Of a stretch of DNA of 64,000 nt, positions 11,922 to 53,313 are shown piece by piece. How positions within the stretch are numbered: the first letter of the stretch is position 1; every line of letters begins with the position of its first letter. Below the pieces are notes generated by a model, which saw only the letters and a list, made by a program, of their open reading frames with translations, was not told the DNA's origin and searched no databases. The translations under genes and the position numbers were made by a program. Origin of the DNA: Eledone cirrhosa (taxonomy: Eukaryota); contig OZ024762.1 of the NCBI GenBank assembly GCA_964016885.1, positions 18,600,001 through 18,664,000 of the forward strand. The letters run 5' to 3'.

Positions 11922-12435
11922 CTAGACCAGTGCAGTCGATAATGACGGCGATAGCGTTGAATGTATTTATGGGAGGATTTTAAATTTGGCGGAACCTATC
12001 TCATCTTCAGAGCTATGTCTGGAGTTGGAGGGGAGGTCTATTGACACACAACATGTCTTGGGGACTTTAATGCTGACAGAACCCATCTCATCTTCAGAGC
12101 TGTGTCTGAAGTCGTAGGGGCGGTCTATTGACACACAACGTGTCTTGGGGACTTTAATGCTGACAGAACCCATCTCATCTTCAGAGCTGTGTCTGAAGTC
12201 GTAGGGGCTGTCTATTGACACACAACATGTCTTGGGGACTTTAATGCTGACAGAACCCATCTCATCTTCAGAGCTGTGTCTGAAGTCGTAGGGGCGGTCT
12301 ATTGACATACAACATGTCTTGGGGACTTTAATGCTGACAGAACCCATCTCATCTTCAGAGCTGTGTCTGAAGTCGTAGGGGCTGTCTATTGACACACAAC
12401 ATGTCTTGGGGACTTTAATGCTGACAGAACCCATC
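11922..12435 (-). repeat. 87-bp tandem repeat (5 copies, 11992-12435) adjacent to a Helitron-like 3' end
   Basis: Unit aacccatctcatcttcagagctgtgtctgaagtcg...gctgacag; on minus, gccgtc-attatc-gactgc hairpin plus CTAG|T at 11922. Confidence 0.75.
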
Positions 12436-46324: not shown

Positions 46325-46860
46325 TTTTTACCTGGTATCGGTTAATTTTCTCCCTCTCCTCTCTTGCACTCTCGTGTCGAATGGGCAGGCCACATCCACA
46401 ATCAGGCACGATCTTTTTTCCTTGTCCAAAACCACCAGGTCAGGTCTATTGTGTTCCAGTTTCTTGTCCGTCTGTATCCTAAAATCCCACAGCACCTTCA
46501 CCTGATCGTTTTCTTCCACCGACTCTGGCTTATGCTCATACCACTTCTCAGAATGTGGTAAATTGTTTACTTTGCATAGGTGCCAGTGGATCACCCTGTC
46601 CATCACATCATATCTCCAGCCTTTATAGTGAGTCTGGGCTAGGTGTTTACACTCGGATACAATGTGAGCCACAGTCTCCTCTCTCTCTCCACAGATCCTA
46701 CACAGTGGGCTAGCCTCCTCCTTGTAAATATGGTGTTTCAGCCACTTCGTTTTGAGGGCCTGCTCTTGCGCAGCCATTAACATTCCTTCTGTAGCCTTTT
46801 TAAGGTCTCCTCTTTTCAACCAGTTCCATGTCTGTGGATCTCTGAATTCAGTTTTCTCAA
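46325..46860 (-). mobile_element. R4/Dong-like non-LTR retrotransposon fragment (zinc knuckle plus RLE)
   Basis: TEGMLMAAQEQAL, CRICGEREETVAHIVSEC (CCHC knuckle), LWDFRIQTD, RPDLVV, DVACP motifs. Confidence 0.85.
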
Positions 46861-46867
46861 GAAGGTA

Positions 46868-47290: not shown

Positions 47291-47448
47291 CTTATACTTA
47301 TTATAAAATACCACACAATACCAAAAACAACGAAAGAACTAATCCTTTCGTTGTTTGTGGTTTTGTGTGGTTGGGTTTTGCCTACCGCAATTTTCAATTT
47401 GTCAACCTTTTTAAACGTAATATATATATATATATATATATACATATA

Positions 47449-47578
47449 CCGTATTTCCCGAAGACGCTTCGTCCTTGCAAAAAATAATAACAAACAACCT
47501 TCGGCCTCCAGGACGCATGGTAGATTTTTGAGACTCATTTTAGGAAAAAAGTAGCGTCTTCGACTCCGGGAAATACAG
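47449..47578. mobile_element. Tc1/mariner-superfamily (Tc2/pogo-like) MITE
   Basis: TA|CCGTATTTCCCG ... CGGGAAATACAG|TA, plus internal gaagacgct/agcgtcttc inverted repeat. Confidence 0.75.
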
Positions 47579-48098
47579 TATATATATATAGGTGTGTGTA
47601 TGTGTGTGTGAGAATAGTTGGAGGTGCGACCATTAAATGCTTTTATACCGAAGTATCGACCATCAGAGATATATCCTGTCATATTAATTCGTTGGCAAAT
47701 ATTTGAATCTAGTTAGGGCAATGACAAGTTTCTTTTGTATCTATTGGAAATAGATAATTGAATAGGGTGTAATATATAATGTGTTTGTAAAGCATATAAT
47801 ATTAATGTCTACATTAAAAAACACACCCGGCTAGACAAGGTTTTATATTAATTTCTCATTAATAAGAAATACTTTTTATATTAGATGTCTATATATTACA
47901 TCTAGCATTATAATCAATCCATACATTATAATCAAAATTATGTTTCAAGGCCTTACGTATCTAAATGAGTGAAATTTGCAACAAAACAAAGTATCCGGGT
48001 TCTTTCAGTGAAGGTAAATATAATTTCGCTAATGGAAACCTATGTTGATATTGAAAACGTTAAATAGTGTCTAATTAACTGATGTAATGCCTTGTATC

Positions 48099-48106
48099 TA
48101 TATAAG
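48099..48106 (+). promoter_or_regulatory. Possible TATA box of the Cys-loop receptor gene
   Basis: TATATAAG about 200 bp upstream of the ATG in otherwise non-repetitive sequence. Weak evidence given the AT-rich background. Confidence 0.25.
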
Positions 48107-48301
48107 AAAATCTCACTTTGTTATTTCACATTTACTTCATCGTCAAATCTACATGAGATAATATTCGTCAGAACCACAAAATAATATCATTTCAACTATC
48201 TGTACCATACAAATTATTCGTTCCCATAATCTGTAATCACACAAAAATACAATCGTACTACTTACCATTGTAAAACAACAGACACAAGAAGGTCAACTAC
48301 A

Positions 48302-49447
48302 ATGAAATTAATTTTATTATTTCTTGTATTTCTCGCGGTCAGTGCAAATACCAAATTAAACAAAACAAATATGCGGGCGGAATTATTGAAGGGTTACGAC
48401 AAAACCATTGTACCTGAGGGTGACATTTTAAACGTAACTGTGACAGTTACCATAAATGAAATTATTAACTTTTATATCCTGGAGGGTACACTTACAAGCA
48501 ATCTCATCATTCATTTACAATGGCAAGATAAATTTCTTTTGTGGAAATTAACAGATTATAACAAAACACGCAGAGGTTTTAAATTAAGCGATATATGGTA
48601 CCCGACCATTCAAATATGTAACAGCGTTTCTGGTAAATTCATTTTTGATGAGGAAAAAATGGTCAGTGTAAAATATGACGGACTCGTTACACTAACTATA
48701 GACAGAATCTTTGAAACCTACTGCAACATTGATAATGAAAAATACCCTATGGATCACCACAAATGCTTTTTAAAATTATGCATGGGACATCAGATGAGCA
48801 CGGAAGTAACGATAAGTAACTTTTCATTGACGGACTATGAACAAATGTCTGGTAGTAAGCAATGGGATTATGTTGCTACGAAGCTCGAATTAATGGATAG
48901 TGACAGAGCTAAGGTTCTAGTGTCCGTTACAAGGAGTATTACGGTTCAAACGATATCTAATATTATACCACCTGCAATGTTAACAGTGTTAATCATAGCA
49001 GTTTATATATTGCCAGCTGAATCTGGAGAGAAAGTTTCAGCAGCAATCACCATTTTTCTCGCAAATATTCTTTTTCTTTCTGAAACGACGAAAGTACTCG
49101 GTAATAGGTCAGAAAAGACATCCCTATACTTGGTATATATCTTAATACTGACATTTATAAGTGGATGTTCTTCTCTCGGCACAATACTTGTGTGTACATT
49201 GTATATAGGCCAGAAGGATGTCAACACAAAATTAACAGGAATCAAACGAGGATCAAGTGGATGGAAAAATAACGTCGGCCCCATAGAAACCTCTGATGAT
49301 ACCAATATAAATGTGAAAATTACAGAAAATACTAAGAGATCTGTTTTTAACTATAGAAATGTAGATATGATATTTTTGACTATTACAGTAATTTTACTGC
49401 TAGTATGTATGTGTATCCTTGTTTATTCATTGCATAAACCACAATAA
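48302..49447 (+). CDS. Intronless Cys-loop ligand-gated ion channel subunit; divergent nAChR-like, cephalopod chemotactile receptor (CR)-like
   Basis: 381-aa uninterrupted ORF of normal complexity, A at -3 of the ATG. Hydrophobic signal peptide ([15 protein letters not shown]); LLKGYDK..VP, W.D..L.W and DIWYP motifs; canonical C-x13-C Cys-loop ([15 protein letters not shown]). M1 ([13 protein letters not shown]), [11 protein letters not shown]1-M2 linker, M2, M3, short intracellular loop, C-terminal M4. No vicinal Cys-Cys in loop C and no loop B Trp. Confidence 0.93.
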
Positions 49448-49483
49448 TAATATCGCACTATACATACGCACACACATGTACAT

Positions 49484-51708
<2,225 letters not shown>

Positions 51709-51931
51709 CATCGTCAGTTGATCGATCTACCAATGTACCTGGGAAAAATGACACATTAAACATCAATATCTGTTTACATACAGAACATTATTGAGTTCGA
51801 TACACTTAAAGGAACACTTACAAACAATCTCATCATTCAATGAAGTTGGCATGATAAAAATCTTGCGTCGCATGAAACATCATATCAAAAAAACATCACA
51901 AGTTTGAAATTGAGTGATATATGGAAGCCCG

Positions 51932-52150
51932 GCGTTTAAACCGGCCATATCCGGCCAGAATCCTCTCACCTTTTTCTTTTCAAAATGGCAGTAACTGGTC
52001 ACTGAGTCCAATGTTGAGGTATTCTTTTCTCAAAATAAACAATATCAAAATCTCATAGAATCGATATTATATGAGATATTATATAAGGTAAAGCCTTTAC
52101 TGTGAAAATACAATAGTATATACAGAATAATATAAATGCTAAAGGGTTAA
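51932..52150. mobile_element. piggyBac-type MITE inside the receptor pseudogene (left TIR truncated)
   Basis: Homologous to 19172-19389; right end TAAATGCTAAAGGG|TTAA. Confidence 0.78.
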
Positions 52151-52236
52151 AATATGTAACAGCGTTTCTGGAAAATTCAATTTTGATGATGAGAAAAAGG
52201 GCGATGTACGAAATAACGGAATTTTCAATACATACT

Positions 52237-52426
52237 AGGTGGTGGATTGGCAGTATCGGTAGAGGGTCGGACGCCATGCTTTGACGCATAGAGTTACGAC
52301 CCTTGCCATTCTGAGTTCAAATCCCACTGAGGTTAACTTTGCCTTTCATCCTTACGGGGTCGATAAAATAAAGTACCAGTAATGCACTGGATAATTGCTG
52401 GCCTTGTGCCAAAAGTAAAAACAATT
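52237..52426 (+). mobile_element. Full-length S1 SINE with 16-bp TSD inside the receptor pseudogene
   Basis: TSD attttcaatacatact at 52221-52236 and 52427-52442; A and B boxes on +. Confidence 0.92.
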
Positions 52427-52544
52427 ATTTTCAATACATACTGCGAAATTAATACTAACTGATATCCAATATATAAACTCAAGTGTTATTTAACTTTATG
52501 TTCAGGAGAGGAGAAGGAAACGAAAGTAATTATATGTTTAACTC

Positions 52545-52593
<49 letters not shown>

Positions 52594-52641
52594 AGAGTAT
52601 TGAAGTTTGCTTGAAGCATTGTGGAACAATAAGTAAATATT

Positions 52642-53257
52642 TATAAGTCGTTTGGAAGCCTCGACAATGCAAATGGGTAAATCTCTGGGTAACAAGGTCC
52701 GGTGGTGGAGAGAGAGATATGTAAGTGAGTGTACGTTGAGATGCGTGGTGTGTATAAGATGTGTGAGATGTGTAGAATGAAGGGAAGAGTAAAAGAATAA
52801 AAATAATAATAACAACACAAGAGAGAGAGTTACCTTGGGAGAGATTTAATAGTCCCTATATATTTCGGATTCACATCCATCAACTGGGTTTTTTTTCCGG
52901 GGTGGGGGAAAAGGTTGTCTGTCGGACAATTCGGAACGCGTCTTTAATCAACAGACAGCGAAAGACGCGTTCCGAGTTGTCCGACAGACAACCTTTTCCC
53001 CCACCACGGAAAAAAACCCAGTTGATGGATGTGAATCCGAAATATATAGGGACTATTAAATCTCTCCCAAGGTAACTCTCTCTCTTGTGTTGTTATTATT
53101 ATTTTTATTCTTTTACTCTTCCCTTCATTCTACACATCTCACACATCTTATACACACCACGCATCTCAACGTACACTCACTTACATATCTCTCTCTCCAC
53201 CACCGGACCTTGTTACCCAGAGATTTACCCATTTGCATTGTCGAGGCTTCCAAACGA

Positions 53258-53263
<6 letters not shown>
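52642..53263. mobile_element. Near-perfect ~300-bp-arm foldback element among (TA)n tracts, with a mutated hammerhead-like motif
   Basis: Arms 52642-52945 and 52961-53263 are reverse complements with very few differences and a 15-nt spacer. The right arm has ccc-agttga-t-ggat-gtga-atcc-GAAA-tatata-ggg (core mutated). Confidence 0.75.

Positions 53264-53313
<50 letters not shown>

What the first reader, a model, noticed from the sequence alone, without database searches (positions are those of the whole stretch)
48302..49447. Single-exon nAChR-like channel lacking the acetylcholine site: chemotactile-receptor-like sensory receptor
Seen: intact Cys-loop and four TM helices. Loop A Tyr is replaced by Cys (IQICNS), loop B Trp is absent (KLCMGHQ), loop C is short without Tyr/Cys-Cys, the intracellular loop is only about 50 aa, and there are no introns. 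Established: cephalopod chemotactile receptors are intronless, tandemly clustered, ACh-insensitive nAChR derivatives expressed in suckers. Inference: this is a member, possibly of an uncharacterised subfamily with unknown ligand.
Basis: partly seen in the sequence, partly recalled or inferred. Interest (0 to 1): 0.75.

Follow-up and report, generated by a model that had tools for sequence, protein, structure and literature searches.

The report
Octopus taste-touch receptor outside its cluster
This intact, single-exon octopus gene belongs to the known "taste-by-touch" receptor family; it is a copy that lies alone on a different chromosome from its 24 clustered relatives, and it likely still works as a sucker chemoreceptor subunit with a predicted polar binding pocket whose ligand is untested.

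Summary
Observation confirmed: a 381-aa single-exon Cys-loop channel at 48302-49447 lacking the acetylcholine aromatic box. It is a cephalopod chemotactile receptor (CR): best PDB hit CRT1 (E 5e-40; best nAChR 1e-22), inside the CR clade but outside the CRT1 subclade, in a group with two O. bimaculoides proteins. It is a ~5-kb DNA-level copy of array gene A, with 720 bp upstream and a piece of the next pseudogene. An intact frame is unlikely under neutral decay (about 0.2% or less). The pore is conserved; the extracellular domain changes faster than the co-copied pseudogene (21.6% vs 15.2%, p=0.02; other tests weaker). The CRT1 hydrophobic pocket is replaced by polar residues. Against: two conserved gating-interface residues changed (D58Y, F150M); expression and function untested.

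The parts
48302..49447 (+). Single-exon CDS, 381-aa chemotactile-receptor subunit (P0001)
48302..48346 (+). Likely signal peptide (aa 1-15)
   Evidence: hydrophobic segment aa 1-19; cleavage site inferred by eye, no predictor run
48617..48619 (+). C106 in place of loop A Tyr; with C160 (48779-48781) a CR-typical cysteine pair, predicted to form a disulfide
   Evidence: both Cys present in 13 of the 14 CR rows shown, CRT1 C96 and C150 among them; absent in L010 and in the two nAChR-type rows; bond not tested
48722..48766 (+). Cys-loop C141-C155; YPFD motif reads YPMD (F150M)
   Evidence: F in 35 of 35 other CR rows
48785..48790 (+). G162-H163 in place of loop B Trp and CRT1 A152-L153
48863..48934 (+). 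beta9-loop C-beta10 (aa 188-211), short, no Cys-Cys; 14 of 24 aligned residues differ from gene A
48938..49435 (+). M1-M4 with ESGEK before M2 (-1' Glu, cation-type; motif meaning recalled), 9' Leu, about 50-aa M3-M4 loop
   Evidence: (M2: 2 of 21 residues differ from gene A)
47579..48301 (+). Co-duplicated upstream region, likely promoter and 5' UTR; TATA-like TATATAA at 48099
   Evidence: 66 of 682 sites differ from the upstream DNA of gene A, against 64 of 421 in the pseudogene pieces, p=0.007; TATA match
49487..51700 (.). Expanded (TA)n microsatellite between the gene and the pseudogene piece; about 0.57 kb of such DNA at the C11 source
51729..52537 (+). 5' piece of the CR pseudogene that follows gene A on C11, broken by two repeat insertions (about 51936-52147 and 52223-52423); lacks the first ~36 codons in both copies
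47579..52537 (+). Whole duplicated block, homologous to G000:C11:23858168-23861050; each end lies at or within about 30 bp of a TA microsatellite
47448..47579 (.). High-copy ~130-bp element with terminal inverted repeats, in a TA run at the left junction (MITE-like)
   Evidence: (summed contig depth above 150,000)
52634..53271 (.). Near-perfect long inverted repeat (96%) just right of the block

Best explanation
The gene is a chemotactile-receptor family member of a non-CRT1 octopod clade, a DNA-level copy of a gene of the C11 array that lies alone on C23, and it likely still encodes a working cation-channel subunit that would sense a chemical at the sucker surface through a predicted polar pocket. 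Shown: family membership, single exon, lost acetylcholine box, position outside the array, the copied block (720 bp upstream, gene, microsatellite, piece of the next pseudogene), open frame, conserved pore. Inferred: the block left C11 by a DNA repair or template-switch event at TA microsatellites before gene A doubled in tandem into A and B; it carried its own promoter; selection kept the frame and pore while the extracellular domain diversified. Predicted mechanism: the subunit joins a homo- or heteropentamer; a ligand binds at the subunit interface, where CRT1's L37/Y39/Y58/W122/F124/A152/L153/L191 read T48/T50/I69/T132/D134/G162/H163/D201, so a polar or cationic compound is more likely than a terpene or steroid; binding opens an ESGEK-type cation pore and depolarises the receptor cell.
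For: PDB: CRT1 E 4.6e-40, CRB1 3.9e-24, best nAChR 1.2e-22; Foldseek top hit 8EIS CRT1. Trees: inside the CR clade (100/99; SH-aLRT 99 with real CRT1 and 19 non-CR rows), sister to gene A (100), in a 9-row clade (100) apart from the 13-row CRT1 clade. Three protein queries each return the same 25 full-length loci, 24 on C11 and this one on C23. DNA homology to C11 covers flanks and the neighbouring pseudogene, which a retrocopy would not carry. No N in the window, its 10-kb flanks or 80 kb of C11. Neutral simulation: chance of no stop 0.2-4.6% over branch lengths 0.11-0.055, chance of no frameshift 4.5%; the window-side neutral branch is 26 polarised changes plus 12 unpolarised in 393 sites. 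CDS indels of 3, 9 and 6 nt keep the frame; the pseudogene piece took two insertions, the CDS and upstream region none. Zero-fold sites differ at 80 of 370 in the extracellular domain against 17 of 168 in M1-M3 (p=0.001), 64 of 421 in the pseudogene (p=0.021) and 4 of 46 four-fold sites of the same domain (p=0.050). Upstream DNA is more conserved than the pseudogene (p=0.007). Diversifying pocket with conserved core is the pattern reported for CRs (10.1101/2025.10.28.685082, section 7).
Against: Expression, ion current and ligand are untested. Whole-gene dN/dS against gene A is 0.90-1.12, as neutrality would also give; extracellular dN/dS 1.3-1.95 is not significantly above 1 by bootstrap (P=0.12), nor against all four-fold sites (19 of 118, p=0.24); M1-M3 constraint against the pseudogene is not significant (p=0.11); p-values are uncorrected and pairwise counts do not separate the two branches. 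Two private changes hit conserved positions at the coupling interface: D58Y (D in 30 of 35 other CR rows) and F150M (F in 35 of 35). Gene A's twin B has an in-frame stop and the next two copies are pseudogenes, so this subclade is turning over. Pocket positions come from a 27%-identity alignment, with gaps in loop C. The placement on C23 rests on the assembly; no listed contig bridges the junctions into unique flank.
Confidence: 0.65

Rival explanations
1. A dispersed duplicate that was functional for most of its history but is now relaxed or silent: an intact frame on its way to becoming a pseudogene.
For: Whole-gene dN/dS near 1; D58Y and F150M at conserved sites; sister copies B, psiA and psiB are broken; it has left the array and any shared enhancer.
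Against: Upstream region more conserved than neutral DNA; M2 differs at 2 of 21 residues; 5 departures from CR-conserved columns, the same number as intact gene A and fewer than L010, L021, L025 (13-14); squid CRB1 also has a non-Asp at the D58 position and Glu at E61 (alignment).
Confidence: 0.2
2. A non-binding, modulatory subunit: it works only inside heteropentamers with other CRs, changing their tuning or gating, so its own pocket is free to drift.
For: No aromatic residue at the CRT1 pocket positions compared; the whole clade lacks the M2-M3 proline of CRT1 and P0005; CR subunits combine into heteromers (PMC11526382; 10.1101/2025.03.03.641191).
Against: Replacement changes in the extracellular domain exceed the neutral control, which drift alone would not give; D/E134 and H/Y163 recur across the clade.
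Confidence: 0.1
3. Assembly misplacement: the block is a further copy inside the C11 array that was scaffolded onto C23.
For: Both ends lie at microsatellites and repeats, which can mislead assemblers; no contig bridge across the junctions was listed.
Against: No gap in 84 kb around it; outside the block the window shares only dispersed repeats with the 80 kb of C11 compared; 10-18% divergence from A and B is too high for an allele.
Confidence: 0.04
4. A canonical non-alpha nAChR subunit or another pentameric channel, or a retrocopy of one.
For: Pfam gives only the general family; its O. bimaculoides relatives carry automatic 'acetylcholine receptor beta-type' names.
Against: 19-20% identity to nAChR-type rows against 27% to CRT1 and 40-65% within its CR clade; trees; flanks and a neighbouring pseudogene were copied with it.
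Confidence: 0.01

Closest known systems
Octopus bimaculoides CRT1 (PDB 8EIS, 9E6B; P0011)
   Same: Single-exon-type CR architecture, lost ACh aromatic box, C96/C150 pair (here C106/C160), ESGEK, short M3-M4 loop; best PDB and Foldseek hit
   Different: 27% identity; different subclade; hydrophobic pocket residues (Y39, Y58, W122, F124, L153, L191) read T, I, T, D, H, D; loop C 3 residues shorter; no M2-M3 proline
O. bimaculoides XP_014771427.1 (P0002) and XP_014789393.1 (P0004)
   Same: Same clade (support 100); 47% and 41% identity; P0002 lies on a 58,155,575-base contig, as do the CRT-clade O. bimaculoides proteins
   Different: Not one-to-one orthologues as far as the tree resolves; no function found for them here; whether either is CR840 or a named CRX/CRB member was not determinable
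Squid CRB1 (PDB 8EIZ)
   Same: CR family, ACh-insensitive, gated by bitter compounds (PMC10338036); similar loop 2 (no Asp at 58, Glu at 61)
   Different: Scores lower than CRT1 (88.6 against 141 bits); could not be placed in the tree, no sequence id was available
Clustered AChR-like genes of O. bimaculoides chr15 and D. pealeii chr4 (PMC9068888)
   Same: One array of about 25 genes; in squid only five of seven are tightly clustered, so CRs outside the tight cluster have a precedent
   Different: All 26 O. bimaculoides genes are described as clustered on chr15; here one intact copy is on another chromosome with its duplication footprint still readable

Membership tests
Cephalopod chemotactile receptors (CRs) | Cys-loop pentameric channel fold with four TM helices | tested here: met
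Cephalopod chemotactile receptors (CRs) | Falls in the CR clade apart from canonical nAChRs | tested here: met
   100/99, 3 outgroup rows; SH-aLRT 99, 30 CR rows with CRT1, 19 non-CR rows, 10 of them single exons; CRB1 not included
Cephalopod chemotactile receptors (CRs) | Loss of ACh-binding residues in loops A-D | tested here: met
   C106, G162, I69, short loop C without Cys-Cys
Cephalopod chemotactile receptors (CRs) | Intronless coding sequence | tested here: met
   an intron in the 5' UTR was not excluded
Cephalopod chemotactile receptors (CRs) | Tandem genomic cluster (typical of the family, not defining for a member) | tested here: not met
   alone on C23; derives from the C11 array
Cephalopod chemotactile receptors (CRs) | Expression in sucker sensory epithelium | not testable with these tools
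   needs RNA of this species
Cephalopod chemotactile receptors (CRs) | ACh-insensitive, gated by environmental compounds | not testable with these tools
   needs electrophysiology
CRT1-type terpene/steroid receptors | Groups with CRT1 | tested here: not met
   L014 is the CRT1-like gene of this genome (E 1e-165)
CRT1-type terpene/steroid receptors | Hydrophobic pocket Y39/Y58/W122/F124/L153/L191 | tested here: not met
   0 of 6 kept (residues from 10.1101/2025.10.28.685082)
CRB-type bitter receptors | Groups with squid CRB1 | tested here: inconclusive
   lower score than to CRT1; not in the tree
Canonical nAChR alpha or non-alpha subunits | Aromatic box or loop D Trp, long M3-M4 loop, groups with nAChRs | tested here: not met
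Retrocopy | Homology limited to the transcript, poly(A) tail, target-site duplication | tested here: not met
   720 bp upstream, a microsatellite and the next pseudogene were copied

The most novel reading that the evidence does not exclude
An octopus chemotactile receptor escaped its gene cluster tens of millions of years ago with a 700-bp promoter that is enough for expression, and was retuned by positive selection into a receptor for polar or charged compounds with an altered gating interface, perhaps in a new tissue: a natural test of whether CR expression needs the cluster and of whether CRs go beyond hydrophobic ligands.
Probability: 0.25. Interest if true: 0.7.

Novelty: new member of a known kind. 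Interest (0 to 1): 0.4.

Why it matters
CRs are a young, much-studied sensory family in which few members have known ligands. This copy offers two handles. First, it and gene A are a diverged pair (65% protein identity) with a co-copied dead pseudogene as a built-in neutral control, and the 700 bp conserved upstream delimit a candidate minimal CR promoter that can be tested without the cluster. Second, its clade has a polar pocket that departs from the hydrophobic consensus reported for CRs. The family, its intronless structure and its fast-changing pocket are already known, so the gain is incremental unless expression or ligand prove unusual.

Tried and rejected
Sex linkage: rejected. C23 (30.8 Mb) fits the size order; C28 (136.5 Mb) breaks it and carries the best eIF5-family hit and the only OCIA hit, genes listed as Z-linked in Table S6 of PMC10925132; the SPAG9-like exon lies on an unplaced scaffold and PF16471 gave no hit. 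Mosaic of gene A and the pseudogene: rejected; site patterns are interspersed (163 window=A, 69 window=psi, 90 A=psi), though A and psi look homogenised in M1-M3 (97%). Retrocopy: rejected. Capture by a transposon: no matching terminal repeats seen on both sides; the repeat search was swamped by TA runs. Host gene: 105 of 119 candidate frames of the window and its flanks were scanned against Pfam; 3 had hits, none above a curated cut-off. Expression: no RNA holder listed. Contigs of runs X1 and X2 hold the window's variant with no differences, but may be the source sample, so this is no independent support; their depth (3-4.5 and 2 against 8-11 for A+B together; 7.8 on the pseudogene piece in X1; none listed in X3) is too patchy to tell one copy from two. 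RAD-seq runs X4 and X5 do not cover the gene or the unique junctions. Upstream DNA shows no clear match to 7 other CR upstream regions. The profile search of 1.84 billion proteins never ran, so remote or closer relatives may be missed; the word-based search found only 3 proteins at E 1e-20 or better and 7 at 1e-15 with the alignment. No complex prediction was sent: a pass would follow from likeness to solved pentamers. Allard 2023, Kang 2023, van Giesen 2020, the Curr Biol primer and Albertin 2015 were not held. Earlier scan notes had nothing on this gene or family.

Full report
Observation. The frame at 48302-49447 (+) is real: 381 aa, one exon, standard code, with the ligand-binding and transmembrane Pfam domains of Cys-loop channels and a model showing the beta-sandwich and four helices. 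Loop names and the meaning of the -1' Glu, the 9' Leu and the M2-M3 proline are recalled; positions were fixed by alignment with P0005 and human beta2.

Family. The best solved relatives are octopus CRT1 (E 4.6e-40) and squid CRB1 (3.9e-24), ahead of every nAChR; Foldseek also ranks CRT1 first. In a 30-row tree and a 49-row tree with the real CRT1 and 19 non-CR rows (9 near-duplicate array genes were left out; 10 of the 12 other loci included entered as single exons filling under half of the columns), the protein lies inside the CR clade, sister to array gene A (L002, 65% identity), in a fully supported 9-row clade with L004-L007, an unnamed Logan protein and two O. bimaculoides proteins. This clade is separate from the CRT1 clade. 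The CRT/CRB/CRX labels are recalled, and I could not map the clade onto them.

Genomic setting. The window is C23:18,600,001-18,664,000 of a 3.0-Gb genome that these homologies mark as an octopod. Searches with P0001, with the CRT1-like L014 and with the distant L021 each return the same 25 full-length loci, then a drop of more than 20 orders in E-value for L014 and L021 (counts are lower bounds). Twenty-four lie in C11:23,617,958-23,925,044 (23 open frames, and B with an in-frame stop), with two further 5'-truncated, frameshifted pseudogenes. One, this gene, is on C23. In O. bimaculoides the 26 genes are described as clustered on chr15; in squid five of seven are tightly clustered (PMC9068888, passages). 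C23 is likely an autosome: markers listed as Z-linked map to C28.

Origin. Window 47579-52537 matches C11:23,858,168-23,861,050: 720 bp upstream, gene A, the TA microsatellite, and the first part of the next pseudogene. It is therefore a DNA-level duplicate, not a retrocopy; direction C11 to C23 is inferred from the truncated neighbour. It is equally distant from A and B (81% in the CDS), which are 99% alike, so it predates their tandem doubling. Both ends lie at TA runs, with a MITE-like element on the left and a long inverted repeat on the right; a microsatellite-primed repair event is my inference, and transposon capture is not excluded. Both pseudogene copies lack the first ~36 codons, so the pseudogene was likely dead when copied and serves as a neutral control: 64 of 421 sites differ. 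At the rate implied by dS 0.123 over 13-34 million years between two Octopus species (PMC10925132, passages), the copy would be some tens of millions of years old; this is rough.

Selection. Under neutral decay the chance of keeping the start codon and no stop is 4.6%, 1.8%, 0.6% and 0.2% for branch lengths 0.055, 0.075, 0.09 and 0.11, and the chance of no frameshift about 4.5%, from 6 non-triplet indels in 1103 non-coding sites; jointly about 0.2% or less. Upstream DNA differs at 9.7% (p=0.007 against the control). Zero-fold sites differ at 21.6% in the extracellular domain and 10.1% in M1-M3; M2 differs at 2 of 21 residues. Extracellular dN/dS is 1.33-1.95 by four methods and 0.50-0.63 for the rest. 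The excess over neutrality is borderline: p=0.021 against the pseudogene, 0.050 against four-fold sites of the same domain, 0.24 against all four-fold sites, bootstrap P=0.12. Polarised with the pseudogene, the window branch has 30 replacement and 4 silent codon changes, gene A 21 and 4, with 27 unpolarised. So the frame was kept by selection for most of its history; positive selection is likely, not proven; present-day function is not shown.

Mechanism. Conserved W74/D76/W81/W99/P101, the Cys-loop, R211, ESGEK and the 9' Leu predict a pentameric cation channel. None of six CRT1 pocket residues is kept: Y39, Y58, W122, F124, L153, L191 read T50, I69, T132, D134, H163, D201. In CRT1, hydrophilic changes at L153 lower affinity for progesterone and norharmane and Y39Q abolishes the progesterone response (10.1101/2025.10.28.685082, section 7 read whole), so CRT1 pharmacology is not expected; an acidic residue at 134 (7 of 8 clade rows shown) and His or Tyr at 163 (7 of 8) suggest a polar or cationic ligand (inference). 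D58Y and F150M are private changes at the coupling interface; they may retune gating or mark decay. CRB1 has Asn at the first site and Glu three residues on, as here after K61E; FPMD/YPMD in GABA and glycine receptors is recalled.

What is in print. Eight literature searches (listings only) showed no paper on a CR duplicate outside the octopus cluster, but the primary CR papers were not held, and the set of 235 CRs from about 30 species in 10.1101/2025.10.28.685082 may already contain this gene (its Table S6 is an image and the supplement was not seen). Seen as passages only: PMC11526382, PMC13174522, 10.1101/2025.03.03.641191 (24), PMC10338036, PMC9068888, PMC10925132 with two supplement passages, 10.1101/2025.10.28.685082 (19, 71).

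Verdict. A real, intact CR of a non-CRT1 clade; new member of a known kind. The dispersed position, the readable duplication footprint, the conserved 700-bp upstream region and the polar pocket lift it a little above routine. Interest 0.4.

Noticed in passing
G000:C11:23617958-23925044 (L002-L030): Full CR array of this genome: 23 open frames, one copy with an in-frame stop and two truncated pseudogenes; 13 genes are CRT1-like (62-67% to L014 apart from its 98% twin), with several recent tandem pairs.
   Followed up: partly
G000:C11:23857985-23867846 (L035, L036): Recent ~5-kb tandem doubling (98% identical) of gene A plus its pseudogene; copy B carries a TAG in place of the conserved Trp before beta9. 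A and the pseudogene are 97% alike in M1-M3 but about 72% in the extracellular domain, a sign of gene conversion limited to the membrane part.
   Followed up: partly
L004 and L005 (C11:23823350, 23848004): Another recent CR pair with extracellular dN/dS 1.9 (bootstrap P=0.043) and almost no change in M1-M3.
   Followed up: partly
L025, L027 (C11:23919477-23925044): CRs whose M1-M2 linker reads ESKQK instead of ESGEK, so ion selectivity may differ; L010 lacks both CR-typical extra cysteines.
   Followed up: no
L071 (C11:41.94 Mb), L072 (C27:22.06 Mb): Exons of two very divergent Cys-loop subunits with no loop B Trp or Cys-Cys, on a long branch outside both CRs and nAChRs.
   Followed up: no
window 52634-53271: Near-perfect 640-bp palindrome (96%) between TA runs, foldback-like.
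   Followed up: no
window 11970-12434 (-): Tandem repeat of about 87 bp that reads as an open frame of repeated 29-aa units; only weak Pfam hits below cut-off.
   Followed up: no
window 46331-46867 (-): Fragment of a LINE-like element (zf-RVT, E 2e-4, below cut-off) about 0.7 kb left of the duplicated block.
   Followed up: no
G000:C28 and C1420: C28 (136.5 Mb) is the likely Z chromosome; a SPAG9-like first exon sits on a 22.5-kb unplaced scaffold.
   Followed up: partly
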